A DNA stretch of 16,232 nt, taken from the IMG/VR virus record IMGVR_UViG_2562617151_000002, positions 1 to 16,232 of that record, one strand, 5' to 3'. A model generated the notes under the pieces. That model searched no databases, was not told the DNA's origin, and saw only the letters and a program-made list of their open reading frames with translations. The position numbers and the translations under genes were made by a program. Positions 1,392 to 16,232 of this stretch are shown piece by piece; the first letter of the stretch is position 1; every line of letters starts with the position of its first letter. Source of the stretch: a virus (Duplodnaviria; Heunggongvirae; Uroviricota; Caudoviricetes).

Positions 1392-1696
1392 TATTTCACC
1401 TCTTGCTGTGTCATTGTTGAAAAATGGATACCAGCTCGTTGCTGCCAGACGATCCAACCGAGAGTCATATCCCATGCCATGTATTCGTTATCGCCGTTTT
1501 TTACTCTCCGACGATCTACTAAGTCACCGAAACGCTTTTCCATGAATAATTCATAGGCTTCGCGTTCATCTGGCTCTACTTCCAGAGATACGAGTGCGAT
1601 TTCATAAGCACGGCGCTCAATATCGTCTCGAACCTCTAGGCTGCTGATTCGTTCTTTGATTTCTTTAATCAGTTCTTTATTGGTAAATGTGGTCAT
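1391..1696 (-). CDS. Hypothetical phage protein (acidic, 101 aa)
   Basis: ATG at 1696-1694 overlaps the stop of the upstream ORF (TAATG), and its own stop overlaps the xis start, so it is translationally coupled in the leftward operon. No recognisable motif. Confidence 0.5.
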   Translation of the reverse strand: MTTFTNKELIKEIKERISSLEVRDDIERRAYEIALVSLEVEPDEREAYELFMEKRFGDLVDRRRVKNGDNEYMAWDMTLGWIVWQQRAGIHFSTMTQQEVK

Positions 1697-2058
1697 TATG
1701 CTCCAGCCTCCGGTGCTTTTGGCATTACTGCCCAGTGAGTGATATTGAAGTTTTCAAGGTCCCCGACCTGAAATGTCCACTGCCATTCTCCGGTTTCTTT
1801 TTGTCCCCAGGTGTACCAGAGAGAACGCCAGCCAATCAGCCAGCCTTCTCCATTAGCATCAAATAACAGAACACTTTCATTTGCTGGTGGCAGTTCAGCT
1901 GACACTGGTATTATTTTGTTTTCCAGTGCCGCACATTTAGCTTCAAGCGCGTCGAATTTACGTAACAGGTACTCAGCATTTGTTTCATTCACTTTCAGAT
2001 CTCGCGGTACACATTTCCCGCGAAGAAACCCTTCCATTTCGAAAACATTCATGCGCAT
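1696..2058 (-). CDS. Hypothetical phage protein (120 aa, Trp-rich C-terminus)
   Basis: ATG at 2058-2056 is the first gene of the leftward operon. C-terminal GEGWLIGWRSLWYTWGQKETGEWQW pattern resembles small lambdoid b-region/Ea-type proteins. Assignment is by position only. Confidence 0.5.
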   Translation of the reverse strand: MRMNVFEMEGFLRGKCVPRDLKVNETNAEYLLRKFDALEAKCAALENKIIPVSAELPPANESVLLFDANGEGWLIGWRSLWYTWGQKETGEWQWTFQVGDLENFNITHWAVMPKAPEAGA

Positions 2059-2180
2059 TTGCGTAACTCCGATAACTCGTTAAAACGTTCCATAAACATC
2101 CCGTAACCGCAATGCGTCGAATGTTTATCAGCTTAACGTTGCGAAGCTTCAGGCTGCGGCATTTTCTCAACTGTCAGATT

Positions 2181-2240
2181 CTGACCCGTCAAAATCTGAC
2201 GCATCAAAATCTGACCCGTCAAAATTTGATGCGTCGAAAT
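2181..2240. repeat. Four tandem 15-bp iteron-like repeats
   Basis: Units read directly: CTGACCCGTCAAAAT, CTGACGCATCAAAAT, CTGACCCGTCAAAAT, TTGATGCGTCGAAAT. Each carries a 10-bp near-palindrome (TGACNNGTCA) followed by an A-tract. Partial units flank both sides. Confidence 0.6.
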
Positions 2241-2260
2241 CTGGCAAAAAAGCGGGTTTT

Positions 2261-2320
2261 CACCCGTCAGAATCTGGCGGGGATCCGTCAGTAAAATCAA
2301 AACATGATCCGTCAGATAAA
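2261..2320. repeat. Additional CCGTCAG half-site repeats
   Basis: CCGTCAG occurs at 2264-2270, 2285-2291 and 2309-2315, each followed by A-rich sequence. Looks like a continuation of the iteron array. Confidence 0.4.
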
Positions 2321-2814
2321 AAACCTTCTCGTCCGGACGCTTCGCAACCGGACACGCAGACGGCTGAACAGGATTTTTTAACTCGCCATCCTGATGCGGT
2401 TGTATTCAGCCCTAAAAAGCGCCAGTGGGGGACGCAGGATGATTTGACCTGCGCACAGTGGCTCTGGAAAAAAATCATCGCCCTGTACGAGCAGGCTGCC
2501 GAATGTGACGGCGAGGTGGTTCGTCCCAAAGAACCGAACTGGACAGCCTGGGCAAACGAAATTCGCCTGATGTGTGTGCAGGATGGTCGTACTCACAAAC
2601 AAATCTGCGAGATGTACAGCCGCGTCAGCCGCGATCCGTTCTGGTGCCGTAACGTGCTCAGCCCGTCGAAGCTGCGGGAAAAATGGGATGAGCTTTCCCT
2701 GCGCTTATCGCCGTCCGTAAGCACGTACACCGAAAAACGCGAAGACGCGTACTTCAAAGCCAGTTACGACAACGTGGACTACAGCCAGATCCCGGCAGGA
2801 TTCAGGGGGTAATC

Positions 2815-3303
2815 ATGAGTCTTTTGAATGAAGTTCAGAAATTCATTGAAGCCCATCCGGGGTGTACTTCCGGAGACATTGCGGATGCTTTTGCAGGCTA
2901 CTCACGGCAGCGCGTTCTGCAGTCAGCAAGCAAGTTACGTCAGAGTGGGCGTGTGGCTCACCGTTGTGAAGGGGATACACGCAGACATTTCCCGCGCCTG
3001 ACTGAGAGAGCGCAGGAGCCGGAACCACAACCAGTTCGTGAAACCAGACCTGCGCGCAATTTCTATGTCGGCACTAACGATCCACGGGTAATTTTGTGCC
3101 TGACCCGCCAGGCTGAAGAACTGGAGTCCAGGGGCTTATACCGTCGTGCTGCAACCGTGTGGATGGCGGCATTCCGTGAAAGCCACTCCCAACCAGAACG
3201 AAACAATTTTCTGGCGCGTCGTGAGCGGTGTTTACGGAAAAGCAGCAAGCGCGCTGCATCGGGTGAAGAGTGGTATCTGTCAGGGAATTACGTGGGGGCT
3301 TAA
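2815..3303 (+). CDS. Putative regulator: N-terminal wHTH-like region plus PerC-like C-terminal domain
   Basis: ATG 2815 follows the upstream stop by 2 nt. C-terminal segment QAEELESRGLYRRAATVWMAAFRESHSQPERNNFLARRERCLR matches the PerC/Pch family signature (LE..GLYRRAA..W). N-terminus MSLLNEVQKFIEAHPGCTSGDIADAF looks like a small HTH. Confidence 0.5.
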   Translation: MSLLNEVQKFIEAHPGCTSGDIADAFAGYSRQRVLQSASKLRQSGRVAHRCEGDTRRHFPRLTERAQEPEPQPVRETRPARNFYVGTNDPRVILCLTRQAEELESRGLYRRAATVWMAAFRESHSQPERNNFLARRERCLRKSSKRAASGEEWYLSGNYVGA

Positions 3304-3956
3304 TGAGTAATAAATATTGCCAGGCGCTGGTGGAACTGCGGAACAAACCAGCCCATGAACTGAAGGAAGTGGGCGATCAGTGGCGCACGCCGGACAACAT
3401 TTTCTGGGGAATTAACACCCTGTTTGGCCCGTTTGTTCTGGATCTGTTCACTGACGGTGATAACACCAAATGTGCTGCGTATTACACGGCGGAAGACAAC
3501 GCGCTGGCGCATGACTGGTCAGAACGTCTTGCGGAGCTTAAAGGTGCTGCCTTTGGTAATCCCCCATACAGCCGCGCCAGTCAGCATGAGGGGCAATACA
3601 TCACAGGCATGCGTTACATCATGAAGCATGCCAGTGCCATGCGTGATAAAGGTGGGCGCTATGTTTTCCTGATCAAAGCTGCCACCAGCGAAGTGTGGTG
3701 GCCGGAAGATGCAGATCATATTGCTTTTATTCGCGGGCGTATTGGTTTTGAACTGCCTGCCTGGTTTATCCCGAAAGATGAGAAGCAGGTGCCGACAGGC
3801 GCTTTCTTCGCTGGTGCTATTGCTGTTTTCGACAAGACCTGGAAGGGACCGGCAATCAGCTACATCGGGCGCGATGAACTTGAGGCATGTGGTGAGGCGT
3901 TTCTGGCGCAGGTTCGCCAGCAGGCGGAAAAACTGGTCAGGGAGATGGCGGCATGA
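3303..3956 (+). CDS. Phage DNA N6-adenine methyltransferase (Dam-type, orphan)
   Basis: ATG 3303 overlaps the upstream stop (TAATG). Translation has W-TP near the N-terminus, FVLDLFTDGDN, and the catalytic NPPY motif (GNPPYSRAS). An in-frame GTG at 3270 is a less likely start. No restriction partner is adjacent. Confidence 0.8.
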   Translation: MSNKYCQALVELRNKPAHELKEVGDQWRTPDNIFWGINTLFGPFVLDLFTDGDNTKCAAYYTAEDNALAHDWSERLAELKGAAFGNPPYSRASQHEGQYITGMRYIMKHASAMRDKGGRYVFLIKAATSEVWWPEDADHIAFIRGRIGFELPAWFIPKDEKQVPTGAFFAGAIAVFDKTWKGPAISYIGRDELEACGEAFLAQVRQQAEKLVREMAA

Positions 3957-4279
3957 CGACGTTAACTCAATGCCAGCAGCAGGTGCTGGATATGCTGATT
4001 TCTTATCAGAAAGAACGTGGCTTCCCGCCAACCAATCAGGAGGTGGCAACCATGCTGGGATACCGTTCAGTGAATGCAGCGGTGGAGCATCTTCGCGCAC
4101 TGGAGAAAAAAGGCGTCATCACGATAAAGCGTGGTGTGGCCCGGGGGATCACGCTTCATACCGTGGTGAAGGACGACGACAGCGAGGCGGTCGGGATTAT
4201 CCGCTCACTGCTTGCCGGTGAGGAAAACGCCAGGCTGCGTGCAGCCCACTGGTTACATGAGAGGGGCCTGAAAGTATGA
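3953..4279 (+). CDS. LexA N-terminal DNA-binding-domain homolog lacking the S24 peptidase domain
   Basis: ATG 3953 overlaps the dam stop (ATGA). The 108-aa product aligns by eye with LexA residues 1-70 (LT..QQ.V.D.I...G.PPT..E.A..LGYRS.NAA.EHL.AL.KKGVI.I..G..RGI.L). The protein ends before any Ala-Gly cleavage site or Ser/Lys dyad. Confidence 0.75.
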   Translation: MTTLTQCQQQVLDMLISYQKERGFPPTNQEVATMLGYRSVNAAVEHLRALEKKGVITIKRGVARGITLHTVVKDDDSEAVGIIRSLLAGEENARLRAAHWLHERGLKV

Positions 4280-4671
4280 AGCTGATCCTACCTTTTCCGC
4301 CCAGCGTGAACACGTACTGGCGACACCCCAACAAAGGGGCGTTTGCTGGTAAGAGCCTGATAAGCGCGGCGGGGCGAAAATTCCAGAGCGCGGCGTGTGC
4401 AGCAATAGTTGAGCAGTTACGTCGTCTGCCGAAACCAACGTCGGCACCTGCTTCAGTGGAGATCGTGTTGTTTCCTCCGGATAACCGGATCCGCGATCTG
4501 GACAACTATAACAAGGCGCTGTTTGACGCCCTGACCCACGCGGGTGTGTGGGAAGACGACAGTCAGGTGAAAAGAATGCTGGTGGAGTGGGGACCGGTTA
4601 TCCCGGAGGGGAAGGTCGAGATCACTATCAGTAAGTACGAAAAAGCGAGTTGCAAATTAGCAACTCGGTAA
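4276..4671 (+). CDS. rusA: RusA-family Holliday junction resolvase
   Basis: ATG 4276 overlaps the upstream stop (ATGA). Translation has LPFPPSVNTYWR and RDLDNYNKALFDALTHAGVWEDDSQV, the RusA core with catalytic Asp residues. Confidence 0.8.
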   Translation: MKLILPFPPSVNTYWRHPNKGAFAGKSLISAAGRKFQSAACAAIVEQLRRLPKPTSAPASVEIVLFPPDNRIRDLDNYNKALFDALTHAGVWEDDSQVKRMLVEWGPVIPEGKVEITISKYEKASCKLATR

Positions 4672-4716
4672 CGGAATTGAGCAACACCCTAAATTTGGGT
4701 ATTACCTCGTTAAAGA

Positions 4717-4736
4717 TACTGTATTTATGAACAGTG
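4717..4736. promoter_or_regulatory. Near-consensus LexA operator (SOS box)
   Basis: TACTGTATTTATGAACAGTG matches the E. coli LexA box TACTG-(N10)-CAGTA, with CTGT at 4719-4722 and ACAG at 4731-4734. It sits about 100 bp upstream of the next gene start, next to a candidate TTGATA(4742-4747)-17-TAAGTT(4765-4770) promoter. Confidence 0.65.
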
Positions 4737-4833
4737 TATCCTTGATAACTATTAAAAATCGCAGTAAGTTCATCCTGCATCAACGAAAAGGGAGTGCAGT
4801 CCCGCTCGTGGATAAAAATTTGTGGAGAAACCA

Positions 4834-5649
4834 ATGAATCAGTTGCTTGTAATTGATGGCGTTTCTGTGCGCCAGTACTTCGAATCTAACTACTGTCTTA
4901 ACGACCTTCAGAAAGCAGCTCTTCTTGCCGCTGGTGAGAATCGCTCCTCCCGTTCGCTGGAAGTTCACGAGTTTATGCGTCGTCCTGAAACGAAGGCTCT
5001 TGTGGAATTATTGGAAGAAGAAACTACGGGAGATTCCCGTAGTATTCCTGTCATCACCATTCAGGGGCGCAATGGTGGGACGTATGTCTGTAAAGAGCTG
5101 GTCTATGCATATGCAATGTGGATCAGCCCGGCATTCAGCTTAAAAGTGATACGTACTTTTGATGCGCTTCATAATTCATCACCAGAAGAAACCACATCCG
5201 ACAAAATTAAATCCGGGGTCATTCTGCTTGAATCAGCAGCAAAGACTCTAAATCTGTCAAACTCCTCGAAACTTGGTGCATACCAGAAATTATCAAAGGT
5301 AGCTGGTCTTCCTGAACTTATGCCGATCTATGCCATTGATGCACCTGCTGATGCGCCAGATGGTTCAAGCCGCCCTACGCTGTCGCTGAGTGCACTGCTG
5401 AAGCAGTATGGTATCCGCCTGACGGCTAATCAGGCATATCACCAGATGGCGAAGCTGGGGATCGTTGAACAACGCGAACGATACAGCCGTACCGCGATTA
5501 ACAACATCAAAAAATTCTGGTCGCTGACCGCGAAAGGCTGCATGTTCGGCAAGAACATCACCAGTCCTGCAAATCCGCGCGAGACGCAGCCGCATTTCTT
5601 CGAATCCCGATTCCCTGAGCTGTTAAAGCTGCTCGATACCGTTCATTGA
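4834..5649 (+). CDS. Phage antirepressor-like protein (Bro-N/AntA-like N-terminus, KilA-C/ANT-like C-terminus)
   Basis: ATG 4834 has GGAG 6 nt upstream; the in-frame GTG at 4822 is less likely. N-terminal LLVIDGVSVRQYFESNYCLNDLQKAA ... GTYVCKELVYAYAMWISPAFSLKVI and C-terminal AKLGIVEQRE ... KGCMFGKNI resemble phage antirepressor domains. Confidence 0.6.
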   Translation: MNQLLVIDGVSVRQYFESNYCLNDLQKAALLAAGENRSSRSLEVHEFMRRPETKALVELLEEETTGDSRSIPVITIQGRNGGTYVCKELVYAYAMWISPAFSLKVIRTFDALHNSSPEETTSDKIKSGVILLESAAKTLNLSNSSKLGAYQKLSKVAGLPELMPIYAIDAPADAPDGSSRPTLSLSALLKQYGIRLTANQAYHQMAKLGIVEQRERYSRTAINNIKKFWSLTAKGCMFGKNITSPANPRETQPHFFESRFPELLKLLDTVH

Positions 5650-5650
5650 G

Positions 5651-6646
5651 GTGACCGTGAGAGCACTACTGACCCCTGAAATTGCCCCGCGTATGGGGAT
5701 CGTATTGTTCAGACCAGGTTCAGAGCTGATGCCCTTGTTTATGCAGGGGCGTGTCCTGCTGGAGCCTGAGCCGGAACGTTATTCATCTTTCGCCAGTGGT
5801 GCCGTTCCGGCGGCATCACAACCGCTGGCGGATGATCCTGCCGTTCGGGCCGTGTTCCGCAATGAGGCAGTGATCCGTCGTGCTGGTGGCGTGGAATGTC
5901 TTGAAAGCTGGTTACTTCGTGAAAAAGGCTGCCAGTGGCCTCATTCCGACTGGCACAGCGAGAACATGACAACAATGCGACACGCTCCGGGCGCAATCCG
6001 TCTGTGCTGGCACTGCGATAACCAGCTGCGCGATCAGTTCACGGAACGGCTGGAATCAATGGCAACGGATAACTGTGCCCGCTGGGTGTTGTCTGTTGTG
6101 CGTCGGGATCTCGGTTTTGATGACAGTCATGTTGTGACAATGCCGGAACTGTGCTGGTGGCTGATTCGTAATGATCTGGCGGATGCCTTACCGGAAAGTG
6201 CAGCCCGTAAGGCACTGAGATTACCGAAGCCTGTTGTGCCGTCTGTTACCCGGGAAAGTGACCTTGTGCCTTCGGTTCCTGCCACCAGCATCATCCAGGA
6301 TAAGGCGAAAAAGGTGCTGGCGCTGAAAGTGGATCCGGAGTCGCCGGAGTCTTTTATGTTACGCCCAAAACGTCACCGCTGGGTTAATGAAAAGTACACG
6401 CGCTGGGTTAAGACGCAGCCGTGCGCATGTTGTGGAAAACCTGCTGATGATCCCCACCACCTGATAGGCCACGGTCAGGGGGGAATGGGTACAAAAGCGC
6501 ATGACCTTTTTGTGTTGCCTTTGTGCAGAAAGCATCACGACGAGCTGCATGCGGATACCGTGGCATTTGAAGAGAAGTATGGCTCCCAGCTGGAGCTGAT
6601 ATTTCGTTTTATCGATCGCGCACTGGCGATTGGTGTGCTGGCCTGA
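5651..6646 (+). CDS. Prophage protein with C-terminal Cys/His HNH-like motif (DUF968-like)
   Basis: 331-aa ORF immediately after the upstream stop. C-terminus [23 protein letters not shown] ... [10 protein letters not shown] looks like a zinc-binding HNH-type module. Start is uncertain: GTG 5651, GTG 5657 or ATG 5693. Confidence 0.55.
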
Positions 6647-6663: not shown

Positions 6664-7047
6664 ATGCGTGATATTCAGATGGTTCTTGAACGTTGGGGAG
6701 CGTGGGCGGCTAATAATCATGAAGATGTGACCTGGTCGTCCATTGCCGCCGGTTTTAAGGGATTAATTCCTTCAAAAGTAAAATCTCGCCCGCAATGTTG
6801 TGACGATGACGCGATGATCATTTGCGGGTGCATGGCCCGTCTGAAAAAGAACAACAGCGATTTACACGATTTATTAGTAGATTATTATGTATGTGGTATG
6901 ACATTCATGTCACTGGCAAGTAAGCATTGCTGCTCGGATGGTTATATCGGGAAAAGGTTACAGAAGGCTGAGGGCATAATTGAAGGGATGTTAATGGCAT
7001 TAGATATCCGGTTAGATATGGATATCGTTGCTAATAATTCTAATTGA
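6664..7047 (+). CDS. Late-gene antiterminator Q-like protein (small QuuD-type)
   Basis: ATG 6664 preceded by GGAG (6652-6655). The 127-aa product is Cys-rich ([23 protein letters not shown]), consistent with a zinc-binding Q. It lies directly upstream of the porin and lysis genes, as in DLP12. The ORF track extends to TTG 6649. Confidence 0.6.
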
Positions 7048-7079
7048 TATGCAATTGTTTACTAAAAGTTATTAAAAAT

Positions 7080-7098
7080 GGGGCGTGGAAACGCCCCC
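7080..7098 (-). terminator. Rho-independent terminator candidate for the porin gene
   Basis: 7-bp GC stem GGGGCGT/ACGCCCC with a 4-nt loop. On the minus strand it is followed by ATTTTTAAT. It lies about 140 nt downstream of the porin stop. Confidence 0.5.
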
Positions 7099-7184
7099 AA
7101 AATAAAGGGTAATATATAACAGAAGGTTTATATAGTAAGAAGCAAGGTAGTGCTTCTAAAGGAAGTGGCTTGAGGGCTCCACTT

Positions 7185-7224
7185 ATATGTTGCGGAGGCA
7201 AAGCCTCCCGCAACATATCTTTTT
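7185..7224 (+). terminator. Rho-independent terminator candidate downstream of Q
   Basis: Long inverted repeat ATATGTTGCGGAGGC / GCCTCCCGCAACATAT (one bulge) followed by CTTTTT on the plus strand. Confidence 0.55.
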
Positions 7225-7235
7225 CGTAAGTCAGA

Positions 7236-8318
7236 TTAGAACTGATAAACCAGACCTACAGCGACGATGTCGTCGGTATCAATACCAGCTGTTTTGGTAA
7301 ACTTACTATCGTCAATTAAGTTGATTTTGTAATCAACAAAAGTGGACATGTTTTTATTAAAGTAGTAAGTAGCACCGACATCGACATACTTGACTAAGTC
7401 TCGGTCACCATGAACACCAAGGTCTTTACCTTTTGACTGAAGGTAAGCAACAGATGGACGCAGACCGAAGTCAAACTGATATTGTGCTACTGCTTCAAAG
7501 TTTTGTGCTTTGTTTGCAATATGGTTATTACCAAAAACGGTCATATTCTGAGTTTCAGAATATGTGGTAGCCAGATAGATATTGTTCGCATCATATTTCA
7601 GGCCTGCAGCCCATACTTCCGCATTTTTGCCGGAGGCATTGAATTTGCTCTTACCATAGGCGACCTGACCGTCAGTGCGATCTGATTTAGCATAGGTTGC
7701 ACCCACGCCGAATCCTTCATACTCATAAGTAGTGGAGAAACCGAAACCATCACCATTGGCTTCAGTTACGTCAGTGCGGTCATTTTTACCCTGATACTGA
7801 GCAGCAAAGTTCAGGCCATCGACCAGACCAAAGAAGTCGTTGTTACGATAAGTTGCAACACCAGTAGTGCGACCAGTCATGAACACATCTGTTTGGGTCC
7901 AGGTATCACCACCGAATTCTGGCAGGACGTCAGTCCACGCACCGATGTCGTATGCTACACCGTAGTTACGGCCGTAATCGATTGAGCCGTAATCACCAAA
8001 TTTCAGGCCTGCAAATGCAAGACGGGTTTTGTCTTTGGAAGAACCTTGAGATTCAGCACGGTTGCCTTTGAATTCATATTCCCACTGACCGAAACCAGTC
8101 AGTTGATCGTTGATTTGGGTTTCACCTTTGAAGCCAAGACGGGCATAAGTAGTATCACCATCATCTGCATCATTAGAGGAGAAGTAGTGCTTGGCATTAA
8201 CTTTCCCGTATAGATCCAGCTTGTTACTGTCTTTATTATAAATTTCAGCTGCCTGAGCAGACATCGCCATCAGTACTGATGCAGCTACAGCAGAAATTGC
8301 CACTGTTAATTTTTTCAT
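7236..8318 (-). CDS. nmpC: Prophage-encoded general porin (OmpC/OmpF/PhoE family; NmpC/Lc type)
   Basis: 360-aa ORF with a signal peptide ([23 protein letters not shown]|AEIYNKD), porin motifs ([52 protein letters not shown]) and C-terminal VGLVYQF. It sits between Q and the holin on the opposite strand, as nmpC does in DLP12 and lc in PA-2. The exact symbol is uncertain. Confidence 0.85.
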
Positions 8319-8745
8319 TGTACGCCCTTTTTTTTGAACTATTATTAAAAAATGATGTCACTGCGCGATAAATATTCATCTAATCAATGCGATTATTTCA
8401 AGATGTAAGTTTTAGTTTCTCATTTAATTTGTGAAGTAGATCTCTATTTTTATCTAAACCTTTTCTATCTAATCCTATTCATGGCTCTTGTTTGAACGAA
8501 AATAAATCTATTAGCTAATTTATATTAATGGCACTTATTTATAAGAGATCTATAATTCTTTAGCTTAATTTAAACAAACTAAAAATAACATCGGAAATTA
8601 TTCATTGGTTATTTGTTGAAGTTTTCTTATGTATTTGTGGTGGTGTTTTGAACACTCGGTGGCATTCTCACAAATATCATTTAGTAGTTTACGTACGTAA
8701 AAAATTGGTTATGCTGTTAAGAGTGGTTACTTCGTCACACAGCTT
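8319..8745. promoter_or_regulatory. AT-rich non-coding region upstream of the porin and lysis cassette
   Basis: About 430 bp with no ORF of 60 aa or more and many A/T runs (8340-8640). Probably holds the porin promoter (minus strand) and possibly a late promoter, for example TTGAAC at 8648-8653 with AAATAT about 18 bp downstream. Confidence 0.4.
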
Positions 8746-8775
8746 AAACCCGCCGTCGAGCGGGTTTTTCCATTT
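8746..8775 (+). terminator. Rho-independent terminator candidate about 130 bp upstream of the holin (tR'-like)
   Basis: Stem AACCCGC/GCGGGTT (8747-8753 / 8760-8766) with loop CGTCGA, followed by TTTTCCATTTTTT on the plus strand. Confidence 0.5.
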
Positions 8776-8907
8776 TTTGAGTCTCGATATTAGCTGATAA
8801 CCCAATACCTGAGTTATTCACTGACTCCGAATCTGTTACGTTTCTGCCTTTATTGCGATACGTAGTATCCCCTTAATTTACACCCGCTTTGTCTGCGAGG
8901 TGGGGTT

Positions 8908-9123
8908 ATGAAATCCATGGATAAGTTAACAACGGGTGTCGCCTATGGCACCTCAGCAGGTAGTGCCGGATACTGGTTTTTACAGCTGCTAGATAAAGTC
9001 ACGCCCTCACAGTGGGCGGCAATTGGAGTGCTGGGTAGCCTGGTATTTGGCCTGCTGACGTACCTGACAAACCTTTATTTCAAGATTAAAGAAGATAAGC
9101 GCAAGGCTGCGAGAGGTGGATAA
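8908..9123 (+). CDS. S: Class II holin, phage-21 S-type (pinholin) with dual-start motif
   Basis: 71-aa ORF beginning MKSM (Met1 and Met4). Two hydrophobic segments and a basic C-terminus ([13 protein letters not shown]). Stop overlaps the endolysin start (TAATG). Confidence 0.85.
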
Positions 9124-12059: not shown

Positions 12060-12376
12060 TGCAGATCAATTAATACGATACCTGCGTCATAATTGATTAT
12101 TTGACGTGGTTTGATGGCGTAGATGCACGTTGTGACATGTAGATGATAATTATTATCATTTTTCGGGTCCTTTCCGGCGATCCGACAGGTTACGGGGCGG
12201 CGACCTCGCGGGTTTTCGCTATTTATGAAAATTTTCCGGTTTAAGGCGTTTCCGTTCTTCTTCGTCGTAACTTAATGTTTTTATTTAAAATACCCCCTGA
12301 AAAGAAAGGAAACGACAGGTGCTGAAAACGAACTTTTGGGCCTCTGTCGTTTCCTTTCTCTGTTTTGGGCCGTGGA
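12060..12376. other. cos: Lambda-type cohesive-end site (cosQ-cosN-cosB)
   Basis: From my recollection of the lambda genome ends: ...CCGACAGGTTACG followed by cosN GGGCGGCGACCT at 12175-12186, then the cosB region CGCGGGTTTTCGCTATTTATGAAAATTTTCCGGTTTAAGGCG... up to the nu1 start, with only a few substitutions. Confidence 0.85.
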
Positions 12377-12383
12377 ATGAACA

Positions 12384-12457
12384 ATGGAAGTCAACAAAAA
12401 GCAGCTGGCTGACATTTTCGGTGCGAGTATCCGTACCATTCAGAACTGGCAGGAACA
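12384..12457 (+). pseudogene. nu1: Terminase small subunit nu1, 5' stub (first about 25 codons only)
   Basis: ATGGAAGTCAACAAAAAGCAGCTGGCTGACATTTTCGGTGCGAGTATCCGTACCATTCAGAACTGGCAGGAACA matches the lambda nu1 start (MEVNKKQLADIFGASIRTIQNWQE). Identity ends after 12457 and the frame stops soon after. Confidence 0.85.
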
Positions 12458-12661
12458 CCGGGCAGCATGGCGGACAGTCGGTCGCAGGCGTCCGGGAAGT
12501 TTGAGCAGAATAACCATGTGGTGATTAACAACGACGGCACGAACGGGCAGATAGGTCCGGCTGCTCTGAAGGCGGTGTATGACATGGCCCGCAAGGGTGC
12601 CCGTGATGAAATTCAGACACAGATGCGTGATGGTGGCCTGTTCTCCGGAGGTGGACGATGA
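12458..12661 (+). pseudogene. H: 3' remnant of tail tape-measure gene H
   Basis: Sequence after the junction encodes ...SQASGKFEQNNHVVINNDGTNGQIGPAALKAVYDMARKGARDEIQTQMRDGGLFSGGGR, and its stop overlaps the M start (ATGA) as in lambda. It is in a different frame from the nu1 stub. Confidence 0.8.
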
Positions 12662-12987
12662 AGACCTTCCGCTGGAAAGTGAAACCCGGTATGGATGTGG
12701 CTTCGGTCCCTTCTGTAAGAAAGGTGCGCTTTGGTGATGGCCATTCCCAGCGAGCGCCTGCCGGGCTGAATGCCAACCTGAAAACGTACAGCGTGACGCT
12801 TTCTGTCCCCCGTGAGGAGGCCACGGTACTGGAGTCGTTTCTGGAAGAGCACGGGGGCTGGAAATCCTTTCTGTGGACGCCGCCTTATGAGTGGCGGCAG
12901 ATAAAGGTGACCTGCGCAAAATGGTCGTCGCGGGTCAGTATGCTGCGTGTTGAGTTCAGCGCAGAGTTTGAACAGGTGGTGAACTGA
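12658..12987 (+). CDS. M: Minor tail protein M (intact)
   Basis: The 109-aa product (MKTFRWKVKPGMDVASVPSVRKVRFGDG...SAEFEQVVN) matches lambda gpM from memory over essentially its full length. Confidence 0.9.
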   Translation: MKTFRWKVKPGMDVASVPSVRKVRFGDGHSQRAPAGLNANLKTYSVTLSVPREEATVLESFLEEHGGWKSFLWTPPYEWRQIKVTCAKWSSRVSMLRVEFSAEFEQVVN

Positions 12988-14936
12988 TGCAGGATAACAG
13001 CGCACAGGCGGCAGCGGCCTCGCAGACTGCATCGGCAAACTCCGCAACAGCAGCTAAAAAATCAGAAACCAACGCGAAAAATAGCGAGACAGCCGCAAAG
13101 ACGAGCGAAACCAACGCAAAGTCCAGCCAGACGGCAGCGAAGACCAGCGAAACGAATGCTAAAGCCAGTGAAACTGCAGCAAAAAACAGCCAGGTTGCAG
13201 CAGCCCAAAGCGAGAGCGCGGCAGCCGGTTCTGCGACTTCAGCAGCTGGATCAGCAACTGCTGCGGCTAACAGCCAGAAAGCTGCGAAGACGAGTGAAAC
13301 TAACGCAAAGTCCAGCCAGACGGCAGCGAAGACCAGCGAAACGAATGCCAAAGCCAGTGAAACTGCGGCGAAAAGCAGTCAGGATGCAGCAGCCCAAAGC
13401 GAGAGTGCTGCAGCTGGTTCTGCAAGCGCGGCGGCTGCTTCTGCCACTGCATCAGCCAACAGTCAAAAAGCAGCAAAAACCAGTGAAACCAATGCAAAGA
13501 CAAGCGAGACTGCAGCGGCGAACTCGGCGAAAGCATCGGCAGCAAGCCAGACGGCAGCTAAAGCAAGCGAAGATGCAGCCAGAGAGTACGCAAGCCAGGC
13601 TGCGGAGCCGTATGAATATGTCTTACAGCCGCTGCCTGATGTGTGGATACCGTTTAACGATTCGCTGGATATGATTACGGGCTTTTCGCCATCATATAAA
13701 AAAATTGTTATTGGTGACGATGAAATAACGATGCCTGGCGACAAGATTGTTAAGTTTAAACGTGCATCGAAAGCAACCTATATTAACAAATCTGGTGTGC
13801 TGACAGAGGCTGCCATTGACGAGCCACGATTTGAACGTGATGGCCTGCTTATTGAGGGGCAAAGAACAAACTACATGCTCAATTCGGAAAGCCCTGCCAG
13901 TTGGGGGCGATCGTCAAATATGGATGTGCCCGAAACTGGGACGGATAGTTTTGGTTTTACCTATGGAAAGTTTGTCTGTAACGATTCTCTGATTGGGCAA
14001 ACCTCAGCCATTAATATGGCATCAATTGCTGCAACAAAGTCAGTTGATGTCTCAGGCGATAATAAATACGTGACAACCTCATGTCGTTTTAAAACAGAAC
14101 TGCAGGTAAGGTTGCGTATCCGGTTTGATAAATATGACGGTAGCGCAACAACTTTTCTTGGTGATGCGTATATTGATACACAAACGCTTGAAACTAATAT
14201 GACAGGCGGCGCTGCCTCAAGGATTACAGCGAGAGTCAGAAAGGACGAAGCTACCGGATGGATTTTTGCAGAGGCAACAATTCAGGCAATTGATGGGGAG
14301 TTAAAAATAGGTTCTCAGATACAGTATTCTCCTAAGCAGGGCGGGGCAACCGTATCTGGTGACTATATTTATCTGGCCACCCCACAAGTAGAAAATGGGC
14401 CTTGTGTATCATCTTTTATTATATCAGGAACGACGGCGGCGACCCGTGCAAGTGATATGGTAACTATTCCCGCAAGAAACAATATTTATAAACAACCTAT
14501 CAGTGTTCTTATTGAAGTTAATAAGAATTGGGATATTGTGCCAAACGGAGCACCAAGAATTTTTGACCTGAACGCAACATCATCATTCGCTGAAGAGTCT
14601 TTTATATTTGCATTCCGAGGGCCGACATCAACAGTTCTTCCTGGATCGGCATATGTTAGTGTTGGTTCCCCGTCAAGAGGAACTGGTAACAATGAAGTTG
14701 TAAACACTGGAATATATGGAGTTAAAATAGACAAAGATGGCGGCTTAGCAGCGTCGCTGAATGGTAACATTTCATCAAAAGTCAGTACTTCATGGGGTGG
14801 TGCTATAAAATCAACGGCAATAAGAATAGGAGGGCAGACAACTGCCGGAACGAGGCATTTGTTTGGACACATCAGGAATTTCAGAATATGGCATAAAGAA
14901 TTAACTGATGCGCAAATGGGGGAGAGTATTAAATGA
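12987..14936 (+). CDS. Side-tail-fibre-like protein; apparent fusion of the L start to an internal Stf repeat region, with a lectin-like C-terminal domain
   Basis: First 10 nt ATGCAGGATA equal the lambda L start (MQD), then the sequence switches to Ala-rich AKTSETNAKSSQTAAK repeats typical of Stf. The C-terminal approx 400 aa are non-repetitive and end in GHIRNFRIWHKELTDAQM, resembling the last strand of LamG/concanavalin-like jelly rolls. ATG overlaps the M stop. Confidence 0.7.
   Translation: MQDNSAQAAAASQTASANSATAAKKSETNAKNSETAAKTSETNAKSSQTAAKTSETNAKASETAAKNSQVAAAQSESAAAGSATSAAGSATAAANSQKAAKTSETNAKSSQTAAKTSETNAKASETAAKSSQDAAAQSESAAAGSASAAAASATASANSQKAAKTSETNAKTSETAAANSAKASAASQTAAKASEDAAREYASQAAEPYEYVLQPLPDVWIPFNDSLDMITGFSPSYKKIVIGDDEITMPGDKIVKFKRASKATYINKSGVLTEAAIDEPRFERDGLLIEGQRTNYMLNSESPASWGRSSNMDVPETGTDSFGFTYGKFVCNDSLIGQTSAINMASIAATKSVDVSGDNKYVTTSCRFKTELQVRLRIRFDKYDGSATTFLGDAYIDTQTLETNMTGGAASRITARVRKDEATGWIFAEATIQAIDGELKIGSQIQYSPKQGGATVSGDYIYLATPQVENGPCVSSFIISGTTAATRASDMVTIPARNNIYKQPISVLIEVNKNWDIVPNGAPRIFDLNATSSFAEESFIFAFRGPTSTVLPGSAYVSVGSPSRGTGNNEVVNTGIYGVKIDKDGGLAASLNGNISSKVSTSWGGAIKSTAIRIGGQTTAGTRHLFGHIRNFRIWHKELTDAQMGESIK
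13116..13234. repeat. Intragenic direct repeat, copy 1 (about 119 bp)
   Basis: GCAAAGTCCAGCCAGACGGCAGCGAAGACCAGCGAAACGAATGC... recurs 189 bp downstream with a handful of substitutions. Confidence 0.7.
13305..13423. repeat. Intragenic direct repeat, copy 2 (about 119 bp)
   Basis: Near-identical to 13116-13234. The 189-bp offset equals 63 codons, so the protein repeat stays in frame. Confidence 0.7.
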
Positions 14937-15214
14937 AAGATTTAACACTCAAATTTGCCGACAGGGCCGACTTTTCGGCTTTTATGGGAAGTATTGGCTA
15001 TTATAATGACGAGTCGATGCAGGATGATATTCTTATTGATGTGATAGGTAACGTGTACAAAGAAACCGGAGAGCTGACTGAAGATGGCGAACCGGTATGT
15101 GTTAAGGAAGACGGATATTTTGTAAACGTGCGCATCATTAATGATGTGAAAACACCGTCAATATTCGATGAATACGTGGTTGCTGTTGAGCATCAACTTC
15201 GTGGCTGGATGTGA
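14933..15214 (+). CDS. Hypothetical small acidic protein (93 aa)
   Basis: ATG 14933 overlaps the fibre gene stop (ATGA). No recognisable motif. Sits where tfa would be in lambda but is not Tfa-like. Confidence 0.5.
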   Translation: MKDLTLKFADRADFSAFMGSIGYYNDESMQDDILIDVIGNVYKETGELTEDGEPVCVKEDGYFVNVRIINDVKTPSIFDEYVVAVEHQLRGWM

Positions 15215-15223
15215 GGAAGAAAA

Positions 15224-15928
15224 ATGGCTACATCGACAGTAATTCCGGGAGACATCACCACGCTAAAGGGAGATGTTAGTAAAGCAAAGGAAGATATTTC
15301 CTCTATTAACGGAAAAGTATCAACGCTTCAGACTGATATGGCCAGTGCACAGCAGGATATCAGCACCAGATACACAAAAACTGAAGTTGATAATAAGCTG
15401 AAAAACAAACTGGAAGTGAATGCTCTGGAAAGCGGTAATTATGGTGGAGATTTTTACCCGCTGACTGGTCGTGAAGCGTTTTATTTATGGAATTTGGGCA
15501 CGACTACAGCGGCGGCAAACCTTTATCTTAATCCTGACCCTGCAATTTCGTCTGTACTGCGGTCAACATCGTCTATTCGCTATAAACATTCAGTAGAGAC
15601 GATAGATTCAGAGCACGCCGATCTCATTTTCAGGATGCGCCCTGTATGGTACAGGTCGCAATGTGAAAATGACAGGCGTGACTGGGGATTCTACGGATTA
15701 ATTGCCGAGGAAGTAGGAGAAATTGCCCCTCAGTTTGTACACTGGCGACCAGCCAACGAGAATGATGCTCCTGAAGCTATTTCCAGCAATGGTCTTGTTG
15801 CCGAAGGTGTAATGTACGAACGTCTGGTTGTTCCACTGATTCACCATATCCAGAAACTGACTGAAAGAGTTGATGAACTTGAGTCAGAATTGAAGTTGTT
15901 ATCAACTTCCCAAAGCGATATCGGATAA
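15224..15928 (+). CDS. Short coiled-coil fibre-like protein with C-terminal intramolecular chaperone (peptidase S74-like) domain
   Basis: ATG 15224 preceded by GAGGAAGA. N-terminal heptad-like region. C-terminus has the motif series seen in tail-spike chaperone domains: SSIRYK (compare SDIRLK), WGFYGLIAEEVGEIAPQFV (compare GVIAQEVEEVFPEVV), GVMYERLVVPLIHHIQKLTERVDELE. Confidence 0.6.
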   Translation: MATSTVIPGDITTLKGDVSKAKEDISSINGKVSTLQTDMASAQQDISTRYTKTEVDNKLKNKLEVNALESGNYGGDFYPLTGREAFYLWNLGTTTAAANLYLNPDPAISSVLRSTSSIRYKHSVETIDSEHADLIFRMRPVWYRSQCENDRRDWGFYGLIAEEVGEIAPQFVHWRPANENDAPEAISSNGLVAEGVMYERLVVPLIHHIQKLTERVDELESELKLLSTSQSDIG

Positions 15929-15938
15929 AGGAGGAGTA

Positions 15939-16232
15939 ATGGATATAACACCTTTTCTTCATGCGCTTTGTGCTGTGGCTGCGCAGGTAATGATTGGTCT
16001 TTTTGCCGGAAACTGGGTTTACGGGGCGATAGCCGGTTGTACGTTCTTCATTGCGCGTGAACACACCCAGGCAGAATATCGCTGGATTGAAATGTTCGGG
16101 CATGGCAAGCGGATTAACATGCCGTGGTGGGGCGGTTTTGATCCGCGTGTTTGGGATGTGGCAAGCCTGATAGATTTTGCTGTGCCGGTGGTGGCGTGTC
16201 TGCTGGTCTGGCTGTTGGTTAATCGTGGGTGA
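15939..16232 (+). CDS. Small integral membrane protein (two predicted TM segments)
   Basis: ATG 15939 preceded by AAGGAGGAG. Hydrophobic segments ALCAVAAQVMIGLFAGNWVYGAIAGCTFFI and LIDFAVPVVACLLVWLLV. Stop codon is the last triplet of the window. Confidence 0.5.
   Translation: MDITPFLHALCAVAAQVMIGLFAGNWVYGAIAGCTFFIAREHTQAEYRWIEMFGHGKRINMPWWGGFDPRVWDVASLIDFAVPVVACLLVWLLVNRG

What the first reader, a model, noticed from the sequence alone, without database searches (positions are those of the whole stretch)
2815..3303. PerC/Pch-like regulatory domain fused to an N-terminal HTH in the nin region
The C-terminal segment (LESRGLYRRAATVWMAAF...RERCLR) resembles the PerC family, whose prophage-encoded members (Pch) activate host virulence loci in pathogenic E. 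coli. Here it is preceded by about 60 residues that look like a winged HTH, and it is translationally coupled to a Dam methyltransferase. A prophage regulator that could act on host genes would be a lysogenic-conversion function.
Basis: partly seen in the sequence, partly recalled or inferred. Interest (0 to 1): 0.55.

Follow-up and report, generated by a model that had tools for sequence, protein, structure and literature searches.

The report
yfdN: known prophage PerC-family regulator gene
The ORF is an intact copy of yfdN, an already annotated but functionally untested prophage gene found in about half of complete E. coli genomes, which joins a winged-helix domain to the short helical core shared by PerC/Pch/ANR regulators; nothing here indicates that it is a Pch-type virulence activator.

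Summary

It is not new. The DNA is 100% identical to RefSeq 'yfdN: PerC family transcriptional regulator', and 2668 of 5426 complete E. coli genomes hold a match. It also occurs in SfV (orf40), SfII, SfIV, mEp460, ST64B and Stx2c phages. The literature already calls yfdN the K-12 PerC homologue.

The Pch analogy is weak. Only 44-52 residues of helical core are shared with Pch-type proteins and PchE. That core also overlaps the ANR anti-activator model, and PerC-like proteins variously activate, ignore or repress LEE1.

The gene always sits directly after an O-like replication gene in the early lytic operon. Dam is optional, and YfdN itself is optional in related phages. Both folded domains are under purifying selection.

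Most likely it is an induction-phase accessory regulator: a DNA-targeting winged helix carrying a PerC/ANR-type protein-interaction module. This is inferred, not shown. This copy lies in a doubly deleted cryptic prophage that has lost its early promoter region.

The parts
2804..2809 (+). Shine-Dalgarno-like AGGGGG, 5 nt upstream of the yfdN ATG
   Evidence: Read directly from the sequence.
2815..3303 (+). yfdN coding sequence (162 aa, stop included); PerC-family two-domain protein
   Evidence: ORF. 100% identical DNA is annotated 'yfdN: PerC family transcriptional regulator' (WP_000055021.1). phrog_1324 matches full length, E = 1.8e-78.
2815..2994 (+). N-terminal winged-helix domain (residues 1-60)
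2995..3081 (+). Variable, predicted disordered linker (residues 61-89)
   Evidence: pLDDT below 50 for residues 63-84. Indels and low conservation among homologues. dN/dS is higher than in the folded domains.
3082..3261 (+). PerC/ANR-type three-helix domain (residues 90-149); Pfam PerC match at residues 98-149
3271..3297 (+). Family-specific C-terminal tail motif W-[YFC]-L-[AS]-G-x-[YF]-x-G (residues 153-161)
   Evidence: Conserved in relatives of 26-49% identity. Absent from Pch, PchE and the short PerC proteins. Low pLDDT. Function unknown.
3301..3305 (+). TAATG stop/start overlap between yfdN and the Dam gene
   Evidence: Read from the sequence. RefSeq has the same 1-nt overlap.
3303..3956 (+). 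Phage N6-adenine DNA methyltransferase (Dam family), the downstream neighbour
   Evidence: Pfam Dam 156 bits and TIGR01712 254 bits. Absent from about 15 of 80 related loci.
2102..2812 (+). 5'-truncated O-like replication gene, with 15-bp iterons at 2174-2248, ending 2 nt before yfdN
   Evidence: Window 2103 onward equals codon ~78 onward of the 313-aa O-like gene of strain ST3. phrog_391 positions 190-298. Homologous to the lambda O C-terminal domain. Iterons.
2103..2105 (.). Deletion junction that removed the immunity and early-promoter region (about 5.2 kb relative to the intact ST3 prophage)
   Evidence: blastn of the window against L001. Annotation of the missing genes yfdR/Q/P, the cI-like ymfK, the cro-like ymfT, ymfL and DUF4222. 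The exact junction is in 0 of 5426 complete genomes.

Best explanation
Identity (shown). The ORF is yfdN, a member of a conserved enterobacterial prophage family (phrog_1324). It has two selectively constrained domains joined by a floppy linker. The first is an N-terminal winged helix. The second is a C-terminal three-helix module that is the homologous core of the PerC/Pch family and overlaps the ANR family. A short family-specific tail follows.

Context (shown). It is an optional accessory gene inserted directly behind the O-like replication gene in the early-right operon of SfV/mEp460/ST64B-type lambdoid prophages, ahead of the nin-type genes and Q.

Timing (inferred). In an intact prophage it is transcribed with the early lytic genes after induction or infection, not in the repressed lysogen.

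Mechanism (inferred from relatives). The winged helix places the protein on DNA. The PerC/ANR-type module then alters a nucleoprotein or regulator complex there. Pch relieves H-NS/StpA/Hha silencing at LEE1. ANR proteins bind H-NS, Ler and AraC-family activators directly. The outcome could be activation or repression, and the targets could be phage or host genes.

This copy. It sits in a cryptic prophage that has lost cI, cro and the early promoter region, so whether it is expressed at all is open.

My confidence by step: identity and architecture about 0.95; induction-phase accessory gene about 0.7; DNA-tethered modulator of H-NS/AraC-type complexes about 0.35.
For: Identity: 100% DNA identity to the annotated yfdN and a match in 2668 of 5426 genomes. 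Phage homologues are listed.

PerC core: Pfam above threshold. All 32 divergent two-domain relatives hit PerC. hhalign gives 99.2%.

ANR overlap: a close short relative, P0201, passes the ANR cut-off at 45.1 bits, while YfdN scores 23.6-24.3.

Winged helix. Helix 3 and the wing carry the conserved basic positions.

The architecture is conserved down to 26-49% identity in roughly 25-30 clusters. dN/dS is 0.07-0.2 in both domains.

Synteny: the gene lies directly behind the O-like gene in 80 of 80 viral loci and in Enterobacter, Leclercia and Kosakonia relatives. It lies downstream of cI/cro in SfV and ST3.

Expression: in CFT073, yfdN changed 12.6-fold in the nitrate/NO condition, listed next to another cryptic-prophage gene, c3192, at 12.8-fold (PMC5320621).

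Mechanistic precedents: Pch relieves H-NS/StpA/Hha silencing at LEE1 (PMC4764244). Aar and Rnr bind H-NS, Ler and AraC-family proteins (PMC5570504, PMC4983702, PMC10148876).

The structural neighbours of the PerC domain are TPR-like and MIT protein-interaction folds.
Against: No experiment addresses YfdN. The literature found offers only an overexpression effect on glycogen (PMC2853380) and its deletion as a precaution in a ler reporter strain (PMC5931665).

DNA binding by the winged helix is not shown. Several top structural neighbours, including the T4 MotA N-terminal domain, RPA32C and ESCRT-II Vps36, are protein-binding winged helices.

The authors of PMC4764244 report that they could not co-precipitate H-NS with PchA. 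An ANR-style direct H-NS contact therefore may not hold for the PerC branch.

YfdN lacks the C-terminal half of PerC/Pch and scores below the ANR cut-off.

Three-helix TPR-like matches are generic.

In this window the native promoter region is deleted, and no above-chance promoter-like site lies upstream (2 found against 1.3 expected).
Confidence: 0.45

Rival explanations
1. First reader's model. YfdN is a Pch/PerC-type activator that switches on host virulence loci (ler/LEE or similar) from the prophage, which would make it a lysogenic-conversion function.
For: It is a true PerC-family member above the Pfam threshold. The core motif is shared with Pch and PchE. Homologues occur in Stx2c-converting phages. 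Researchers deleted yfdN from a K-12 ler-lacZ reporter strain before testing Pch proteins (PMC5931665), which suggests they saw it as a possible confounder.
Against: Only 44-52 residues are shared, and the C-terminal half of Pch is missing. PchD, PchE and the island-encoded PerC-likes do not activate LEE1, and one PerC-like protein represses it (PMC5931665, PMC11773190). A match is present in 49% of complete E. coli genomes, and K-12 carries yfdN (PMC5931665). The gene is in an early-operon position behind the repressor-controlled region, not the post-lysis position next to an effector gene seen for the Pch-type gene.
Confidence: 0.1
2. ANR-like soluble anti-regulator. The PerC/ANR module binds and inactivates AraC-family activators or H-NS-family proteins purely by protein-protein contact. 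The winged helix serves oligomerisation or a second protein contact rather than DNA binding.
For: The core overlaps the ANR model. ANR proteins act by direct binding and form oligomers (PMC4983702, PMC5570504). Several of the closest structural neighbours of the winged helix are protein-binding winged helices. A PerC-like island protein represses LEE1, and its authors suggest it is an ANR (PMC11773190).
Against: YfdN scores below the ANR cut-off (23.6-24.3 against 32). ANR proteins are described as under 10 kDa and single-domain. Most structural neighbours are DNA-binding regulators, and positions 40 and 49 in helix 3 and the wing are conserved basic.
Confidence: 0.15
3. Methylation-linked function. 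YfdN controls, or reads the product of, the DNA adenine methyltransferase encoded next to it, for example as a winged-helix 6mA reader or a controller-type regulator.
For: The gene immediately downstream, with stop/start overlap, is an N6-adenine methyltransferase from unrelated families in different relatives. These are Dam PF05869, MT-A70 PF05063, and a C5-MTase plus D12-class N6A fusion. Prokaryotic winged helices can sense 6mA (PMC11037411).
Confidence: 0.07
4. Replication-module accessory. YfdN occupies the slot that P occupies in lambda and helps the O-like initiator recruit the host helicase.
For: It always lies 2-5 nt after, or overlapping, the O-like gene. No P-, DnaC- or DnaB-like gene is present in these early regions. 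The O C-terminus is homologous to the C-terminal domain of lambda O, which to my knowledge is the domain that contacts P.
Against: Phages with the same O-type lack YfdN, and vB_EcoS-716R3 also has no P-like gene. O and YfdN variants recombine freely: L064 combines a 98% O C-terminus with a 68% YfdN. YfdN has no similarity to any helicase-loader family.
Confidence: 0.06

Closest known systems
YfdN of E. coli K-12 cryptic prophage CPS-53/KpLE1, and SfV orf40 (RefSeq 'PerC family transcriptional regulator'; phrog_1324)
   Same: The same gene. DNA is 100% identical to annotated yfdN copies, and the protein is 95-99% identical to the SfV, SfII, SfIV and mEp460 homologues. It shares the two-domain architecture and the position after the replication gene and before Dam.
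   Different: Nothing of substance. This copy lies in a prophage with two large deletions. The function of YfdN is untested in the papers found.
PchA/B/C of EHEC and PerC of EPEC (Pfam PF06069), activators of the LEE1/ler promoter
   Same: A homologous helical core of about 50 residues, A-x2-L-E-x-[KR]-G-L-[YW]-R-R-A-A-x2-W ... R-R-x2-C. Both are carried on mobile elements.
   Different: The 104-aa Pch-type protein compared here is single-domain and starts directly with the core. It has a different C-terminal half, and its gene lies after a lysis cassette next to an effector gene. YfdN adds a winged helix, a linker and its own tail, lacks that C-terminal half, and lies in the early operon. LEE activation has not been tested for YfdN.
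PchE (ECs_1588) and PerC-like proteins of phage-inducible chromosomal islands (e.g. EcCIMP1_025)
   Same: The same core (40% identity over 52 residues to PchE). They show that PerC-family proteins can have non-LEE or repressive roles (PMC6265319, PMC7369912, PMC11773190).
   Different: PchE is 90 aa and single-domain, and is encoded in a satellite-like element next to primase and SSB genes. It has no winged helix.
ANR family (Aar, Rnr, Cnr; NCBIfam NF033650), anti-activators that bind AraC-family regulators, H-NS and Ler
   Same: The three-helix core aligns with the ANR model over positions 5-51 of 54. A short relative that is 41% identical to the YfdN core passes the ANR cut-off. The predicted three-helix architecture matches the description of ANRs.
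   Different: YfdN scores below the ANR cut-off (23.6-24.3 against 32 bits). It is 162 aa rather than under 10 kDa, and it carries a winged helix. No interaction data exist.
Winged-helix DNA-binding regulators (MarR/SlyA, ArsR/SmtB, BlaI/MecI) and the T4 MotA N-terminal domain
   Different: Sequence identity is only 5-25%. There is no dimerisation or ligand domain of those families. Membership in any named wHTH family is not established.

Membership tests
PerC (Pfam PF06069) | Whole-protein score above Pfam's gathering threshold | tested here: met
   36.2 bits against 22.6, E = 7.5e-9. All 32 divergent two-domain relatives also match at E <= 0.01.
PerC (Pfam PF06069) | Conserved core motif (A..LE.[KR]GL[YW]RRAA..W ... 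RR..C) | tested here: met
   Invariant A, L, G, R-A-A, R and C columns in the alignment with Pch, PchE and short PerC proteins. hhalign 99.2%, E = 3e-19.
PerC (Pfam PF06069) | Match over the whole 90-position profile, including the C-terminal half | tested here: not met
   Only profile positions 5-56 of 90 are matched. BLASTP against a 104-aa Pch-type protein aligns only Pch residues 7-50.
PerC (Pfam PF06069) | Transcriptional activation of LEE1/ler | not testable with these tools
   No experiment on YfdN was found. PMC5931665 only deleted yfdN from the reporter strain.
Pch group 1 (PchA/B/C) | Single-domain protein of about 104 aa (315-bp gene), close to PchA/B/C | tested here: not met
   162 aa with two domains. 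41% identity over 44 residues to the 104-aa Pch-type protein of L002. The 315-bp length is from PMC5931665.
Pch group 1 (PchA/B/C) | Position downstream of the lysis genes, beside effector genes | tested here: not met
   The Pch-type gene lies after holin, lysozyme and Rz1 and next to espS. yfdN lies between the O-like gene and Dam in the early operon.
ANR (NCBIfam NF033650) | Score above the curated cut-off (32 bits) | tested here: not met
   23.6 bits for the full length and 24.3 bits for the C-terminal domain alone.
ANR (NCBIfam NF033650) | Small (<10 kDa) protein made of three conserved helices | tested here: not met
   Three helices are predicted at 90-149. The protein is 162 aa and has an extra winged-helix domain. 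The definition is from PMC4983702.
ANR (NCBIfam NF033650) | Direct binding to AraC-family regulators and/or H-NS | not testable with these tools
   This needs two-hybrid or pull-down assays.
Winged-helix (wHTH) domain | H1-H2-H3 plus beta-hairpin wing topology, and structural similarity to solved winged helices | tested here: met
Winged-helix (wHTH) domain | Sequence-profile membership in a named wHTH family | tested here: inconclusive
   The query has no Pfam HTH hit at E <= 1. phrog_1687 (MarR) gives E = 8e-5 and BilQ gives E = 0.0035, far below its cut-off. Among 32 homologues, 4 hit Penicillinase_R, 3 hit MarR_2 and 2 hit HTH_24.
Winged-helix (wHTH) domain | DNA binding | not testable with these tools
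   Positions 40 and 49 in helix 3 and the wing are conserved basic, and the domain pI is 9.4. This is suggestive only.
YfdN family (phrog_1324) | Full-length match and conserved position directly after an O-like replication gene | tested here: met
   phrog_1324 E = 1.8e-78 over residues 1-161. The position holds in 80 of 80 viral loci and 6 divergent genome loci.

The most novel reading that the evidence does not exclude
YfdN-type proteins may be a DNA-targeted branch of the PerC/ANR superfamily, made when a prophage is induced. The winged helix would deliver the PerC/ANR module to specific sites, where it would remodel H-NS-family or AraC-family complexes. Because about half of complete E. 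coli genomes hold a match, prophage induction or leaky expression from cryptic prophages could then rewire host silencing, adhesion or metabolism genes far beyond LEE-positive pathogens. A more speculative variant is that the winged helix reads the N6-adenine methylation laid down by the neighbouring methyltransferase.
Probability: 0.2. Interest if true: 0.55.

Novelty: already known. Interest (0 to 1): 0.2.

Why it matters
As found, it matters little. The gene is already annotated as yfdN, a PerC-family regulator, and the literature already recognises it as the K-12 PerC homologue.

Three modest points may have value.

(1) Pfam and NCBIfam do not report the N-terminal winged helix for this protein. 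It is nonetheless conserved and under selection across the family. YfdN-type proteins therefore differ in architecture from every Pch (A-E) and ANR protein examined or described in the papers read.

(2) The PerC core and the ANR model overlap. Together with published cases of PerC-likes that activate, ignore or repress LEE1, this argues against reading 'PerC family' as 'virulence activator'.

(3) The family is very common in E. coli, Shigella and Salmonella prophages and has not been tested experimentally. A simple set of experiments could define a widespread regulator.

Tried and rejected
1. A PDB sequence search with the full protein gave no hit at E <= 10.

2. Porter et al. 2005 (PMC543544) is not held, so I could not check whether YfdN-type proteins were tested on LEE1.

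3. The search for related loci with the 32-sequence alignment failed because no stretch was conserved enough. A 10-sequence alignment worked, but the viral hits were all close enterobacterial relatives. The genome scan gave only 8 loci.

5. The promoter scan of 1600-3500 found 2 promoter-like sites against 1.3 expected. None lies near yfdN or at the dam promoter annotated inside SfV orf40. At those positions the window has poor hexamers (TGGCGC and TACGGA by my reading).

6. I considered that YfdN is an obligate partner of the O-like initiator. I rejected this as the main explanation because related phages with the same O-type lack it.

7. I considered that the overlap with Dam signals a functional unit. 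I downgraded this because Dam is missing in about 15 of 80 loci and such overlaps are general in this operon.

8. I asked whether PchD or PchE are the two-domain type. PchE is 90 aa and single-domain. PchD was not retrieved.

9. P0198, a 462-aa protein with six matched stretches, looks like a repetitive, unrelated protein. I did not pursue it.

Full report

Yes. Window 2815-3303 (+) is an open reading frame of 162 codons starting at ATG 2815. An AGGGGG ribosome-binding-like site lies five bases upstream. The stop TAA at 3301-3303 shares its last base with the ATG of the next gene.

That next gene encodes a phage N6-adenine DNA methyltransferase (Pfam Dam 156 bits; TIGR01712 254 bits).

Residues 98-149 match Pfam PerC (PF06069) with 36.2 bits against a curated threshold of 22.6, E = 7.5e-9.

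**2. The N-terminal winged helix**

An AlphaFold2 model built on 19 homologues gives two confident domains and a disordered linker.
- Residues 1-60: helices 3-13, 19-25 and 31-44, then a beta-hairpin at 47-60, pLDDT 85-92.
- Residues 63-84: disordered linker.
- Residues 90-149: three helices, pLDDT about 90.

Sequence support for the query alone is weak: a PHROG MarR family at E = 8e-5 and nothing in Pfam. Among 32 divergent homologues, however, several hit Penicillinase_R, MarR_2, HTH_24, PaaX, F-93_WHD, DsrD or FaeA, all of which are winged-helix families. Positions 40 and 49, in helix 3 and the wing, are the most conserved basic positions.

The fold assignment rests on a predicted structure, and DNA binding is not shown. 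Some of the best structural neighbours are protein-binding winged helices.

**3. What the gene is**

It is yfdN.
- The 489 bases are 100% identical to genes that RefSeq annotates 'yfdN: PerC family transcriptional regulator', followed by 'phage N-6-adenine-methyltransferase'.
- 2668 of 5426 complete E. coli genomes hold a match.
- Homologues at 95-100% protein identity occur in SfV (orf40), SfII, SfIV, mEp460, Ayreon and Stx2c-converting phages. A 68% homologue occurs in Salmonella phage ST64B.
- A full-length PHROG family exists (phrog_1324, E = 1.8e-78).
- The literature calls yfdN 'the K12 unique PerC homologue' (PMC5931665).
- No experiment on its function was found. There is an overexpression effect on glycogen (PMC2853380). 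There is a 12.6-fold change in CFT073 in the nitrate/NO condition, listed next to another cryptic-prophage gene (PMC5320621). It also appears in multi-gene hit regions of two UPEC expression screens.

**4. The architecture is a conserved family feature**

An exhaustive search of 1.84 billion representative proteins found 100 hits at E <= 0.001. They include roughly 25-30 clusters of 140-165 aa that align end to end with the query at 26-49% identity.

Both domains are conserved across them and the linker is not. A family-specific C-terminal tail, W-[YFC]-L-[AS]-G-x-[YF]-x-G, is also conserved.

Against the group at about 70% identity, dN/dS is 0.07-0.2 in the winged helix and about 0.1 in the PerC domain. 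It is higher in the linker. The two-domain protein is therefore a functional unit under selection.

**5. How close it is to Pch/PerC**

Not very close. I compared it with a 104-aa PerC-family gene that lies after a lysis cassette next to espS. Its 315-bp length is the one published for pchA/B/C. Only YfdN 100-143 aligns, to Pch residues 7-50, at 41% identity.

PchE of O157 Sakai (ECs_1588) is 90 aa and sits in a satellite-like element. It aligns over 52 residues at 40% identity.

A profile-profile comparison confirms that the core is homologous (99.2%, E = 3e-19, 57 columns). The short proteins start directly with the core and continue into a C-terminal half that YfdN lacks. YfdN matches only positions 5-56 of the 90-position Pfam profile.

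The same core overlaps NCBI's ANR (AraC negative regulator) model. YfdN scores 23.6-24.3 bits against a cut-off of 32. A short relative, P0201, passes at 45.1 bits.

**6. What relatives are known to do**

- Group 1 Pch proteins activate LEE1 by relieving H-NS/StpA/Hha silencing. The authors report that they could not co-precipitate H-NS with PchA (PMC4764244).
- PchD has no effect on ler, and PchE has less than a 2-fold effect (PMC5931665). PchE instead represses csgD and curli and increases flagellar expression and motility (PMC6265319, PMC7369912).
- PerC-like proteins of chromosomal islands had no effect on LEE1. EcCIMP1_025 represses it, and its authors suggest it may be an ANR (PMC11773190).
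- ANR proteins bind AraC-family activators, H-NS and Ler directly (PMC4983702, PMC5570504, PMC10148876).

PerC-family membership therefore predicts neither the direction nor the target of regulation.

**7. Genomic context**

In the intact prophage of strain ST3 the gene order is as follows:
- integrase, yfdT, DUF551, yfdR/Q/P
- a cI-like and a cro-like gene, ymfL, DUF4222
- the O-like initiator, then yfdN
- Dam, a LexA-DBD-only protein, RusA, KilA-N, DUF968, Q
- a porin gene and the lysis genes

SfV has the same early-region order.

In 80 of 80 related viral loci, yfdN follows the O-like gene within a few bases. Dam follows in about 65 loci and is absent in about 15.

Relatives at about 27-29% identity to the window protein, in Enterobacter, Leclercia and Kosakonia, keep the position behind a replication initiator with overlapping stop and start. 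Their downstream gene is an adenine methyltransferase of a different family: MT-A70, a larger protein with a Dam domain, or a C5 plus D12-class fusion.

YfdN is optional. Phage vB_EcoS-716R3 has an O-type with a 64% identical C-terminus, followed directly by a methylase, RusA and Q. mEp460_ev081 also lacks YfdN.

The position behind the repressor-controlled early promoter implies expression after induction, not in the lysogen. This is an inference from gene order.

**8. This particular copy**

Relative to ST3, the window carries two deletions.
- A deletion of about 5.2 kb at 2103-2105 removes yfdR/Q/P, cI, cro, ymfL, DUF4222 and about the first 77 codons of the O-like gene.
- A second junction near 12452-12457 joins the start of the DNA-packaging gene to distal tail genes.

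The exact first junction occurs in none of the 5426 complete genomes. No promoter-like site above chance lies upstream of yfdN. The ORF is intact, but its expression here is uncertain.

**9. Explanation and rivals**

Best supported: an optional, induction-phase accessory regulator in which a winged helix targets DNA and a PerC/ANR-type helical module acts on a nucleoid-protein or regulator complex. Identity and architecture are shown. Timing is inferred from synteny. The mechanism is inferred from relatives and is uncertain (about 0.35).

Rivals:
- Pch-like LEE activator or lysogenic-conversion factor (0.1).
- Soluble ANR-like anti-regulator with a non-DNA-binding winged helix (0.15).
- Methylation-linked reader or controller (0.07). 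This was prompted by the recurrent adenine-methyltransferase neighbour and by 6mA-sensing winged helices (PMC11037411).
- Replication accessory in the lambda P slot (0.06). This is weakened.

**10. Verdict**

The functional reading is not supported, and the feature is already known and annotated.

Interest is low (0.2). Three side points have some value. Pfam and NCBIfam do not report the winged helix. The PerC core overlaps the ANR model. The family is very common and experimentally untouched.

Noticed in passing
window 2103-2105 (context 1696-2812): Deletion junction. The 3' end of a yfdR-like gene is fused to codon ~78 of the O-like replication gene. About 5.2 kb is missing, including cI, cro and the early promoter region. 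The exact junction is absent from 5426 complete E. coli genomes; three genomes have a similar but different deletion.
   Followed up: yes
window ~12452-12457 (context 12300-16232): Second large deletion. The start of the DNA-packaging (small terminase) gene is joined to the end of the tape-measure/minor-tail region. Downstream are a minor tail protein (12658-12987), a J-like tail protein lacking its N-terminal ~150 profile positions (12987-14936) and a tail-fibre C-terminus with a Peptidase_S74 chaperone domain (15224-15928). The prophage is a cryptic remnant.
   Followed up: partly
window 2174-2248: Five or six 15-bp direct repeats (TCAAAATCTGAC-type) inside the truncated O-like gene. They look like origin iterons that survived although the initiator's N-terminal DNA-binding domain is deleted.
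   Followed up: partly
window 7236-8318 (-), flanks 6801-7400 and 8001-9000: A complete OmpC/NmpC-type porin gene (Porin_1, 505 bits) lies on the opposite strand between antiterminator Q and the lysis cassette. It is flanked by AT-rich DNA (GC 0.34-0.39). It is a more classical lysogenic-conversion candidate than yfdN.
   Followed up: no
window 3953-4279 (+): A 108-aa protein consisting only of a LexA-type DNA-binding domain (LexA_DNA_bind, 69 bits), with no peptidase domain. It is conserved two genes downstream of yfdN, or directly after it where Dam is absent. Its role is unknown.
   Followed up: no
window 3271-3297 (YfdN residues 153-161): A conserved C-terminal tail motif, W-[YFC]-L-[AS]-G-x-[YF]-x-G, specific to the two-domain YfdN family. 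It is predicted disordered and is absent from Pch, PchE and the short PerC proteins. It may be a docking peptide.
   Followed up: partly
L085/L086 4495-5154; L087 4456-5685; L089 ~4460-5664; L090 1543-3726; L091 4429-6252: The gene immediately downstream of divergent YfdN-like genes is a DNA methyltransferase of a different family each time. They are MT-A70 (L085), a 409-aa protein with a Dam domain (L087) and a C5-MTase plus D12-class N6A fusion (L091). L086, L089 and L090 carry close homologues judged by sequence only. Every family-tested case includes an N6-adenine enzyme.
   Followed up: partly
P0180 (214 aa): A relative with two tandem winged-helix-like N-terminal segments ahead of the PerC core. 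This suggests that the DNA-targeting part of the family can be duplicated.
   Followed up: no
L092 21773-22045 (E. coli O157 Sakai, prophage Sp7): pchE (ECs_1588) lies in a small satellite-like element next to primase and SSB genes, upstream of capsid genes. This is the same kind of element in which PerC-like genes are reported for phage-inducible chromosomal islands.
   Followed up: partly
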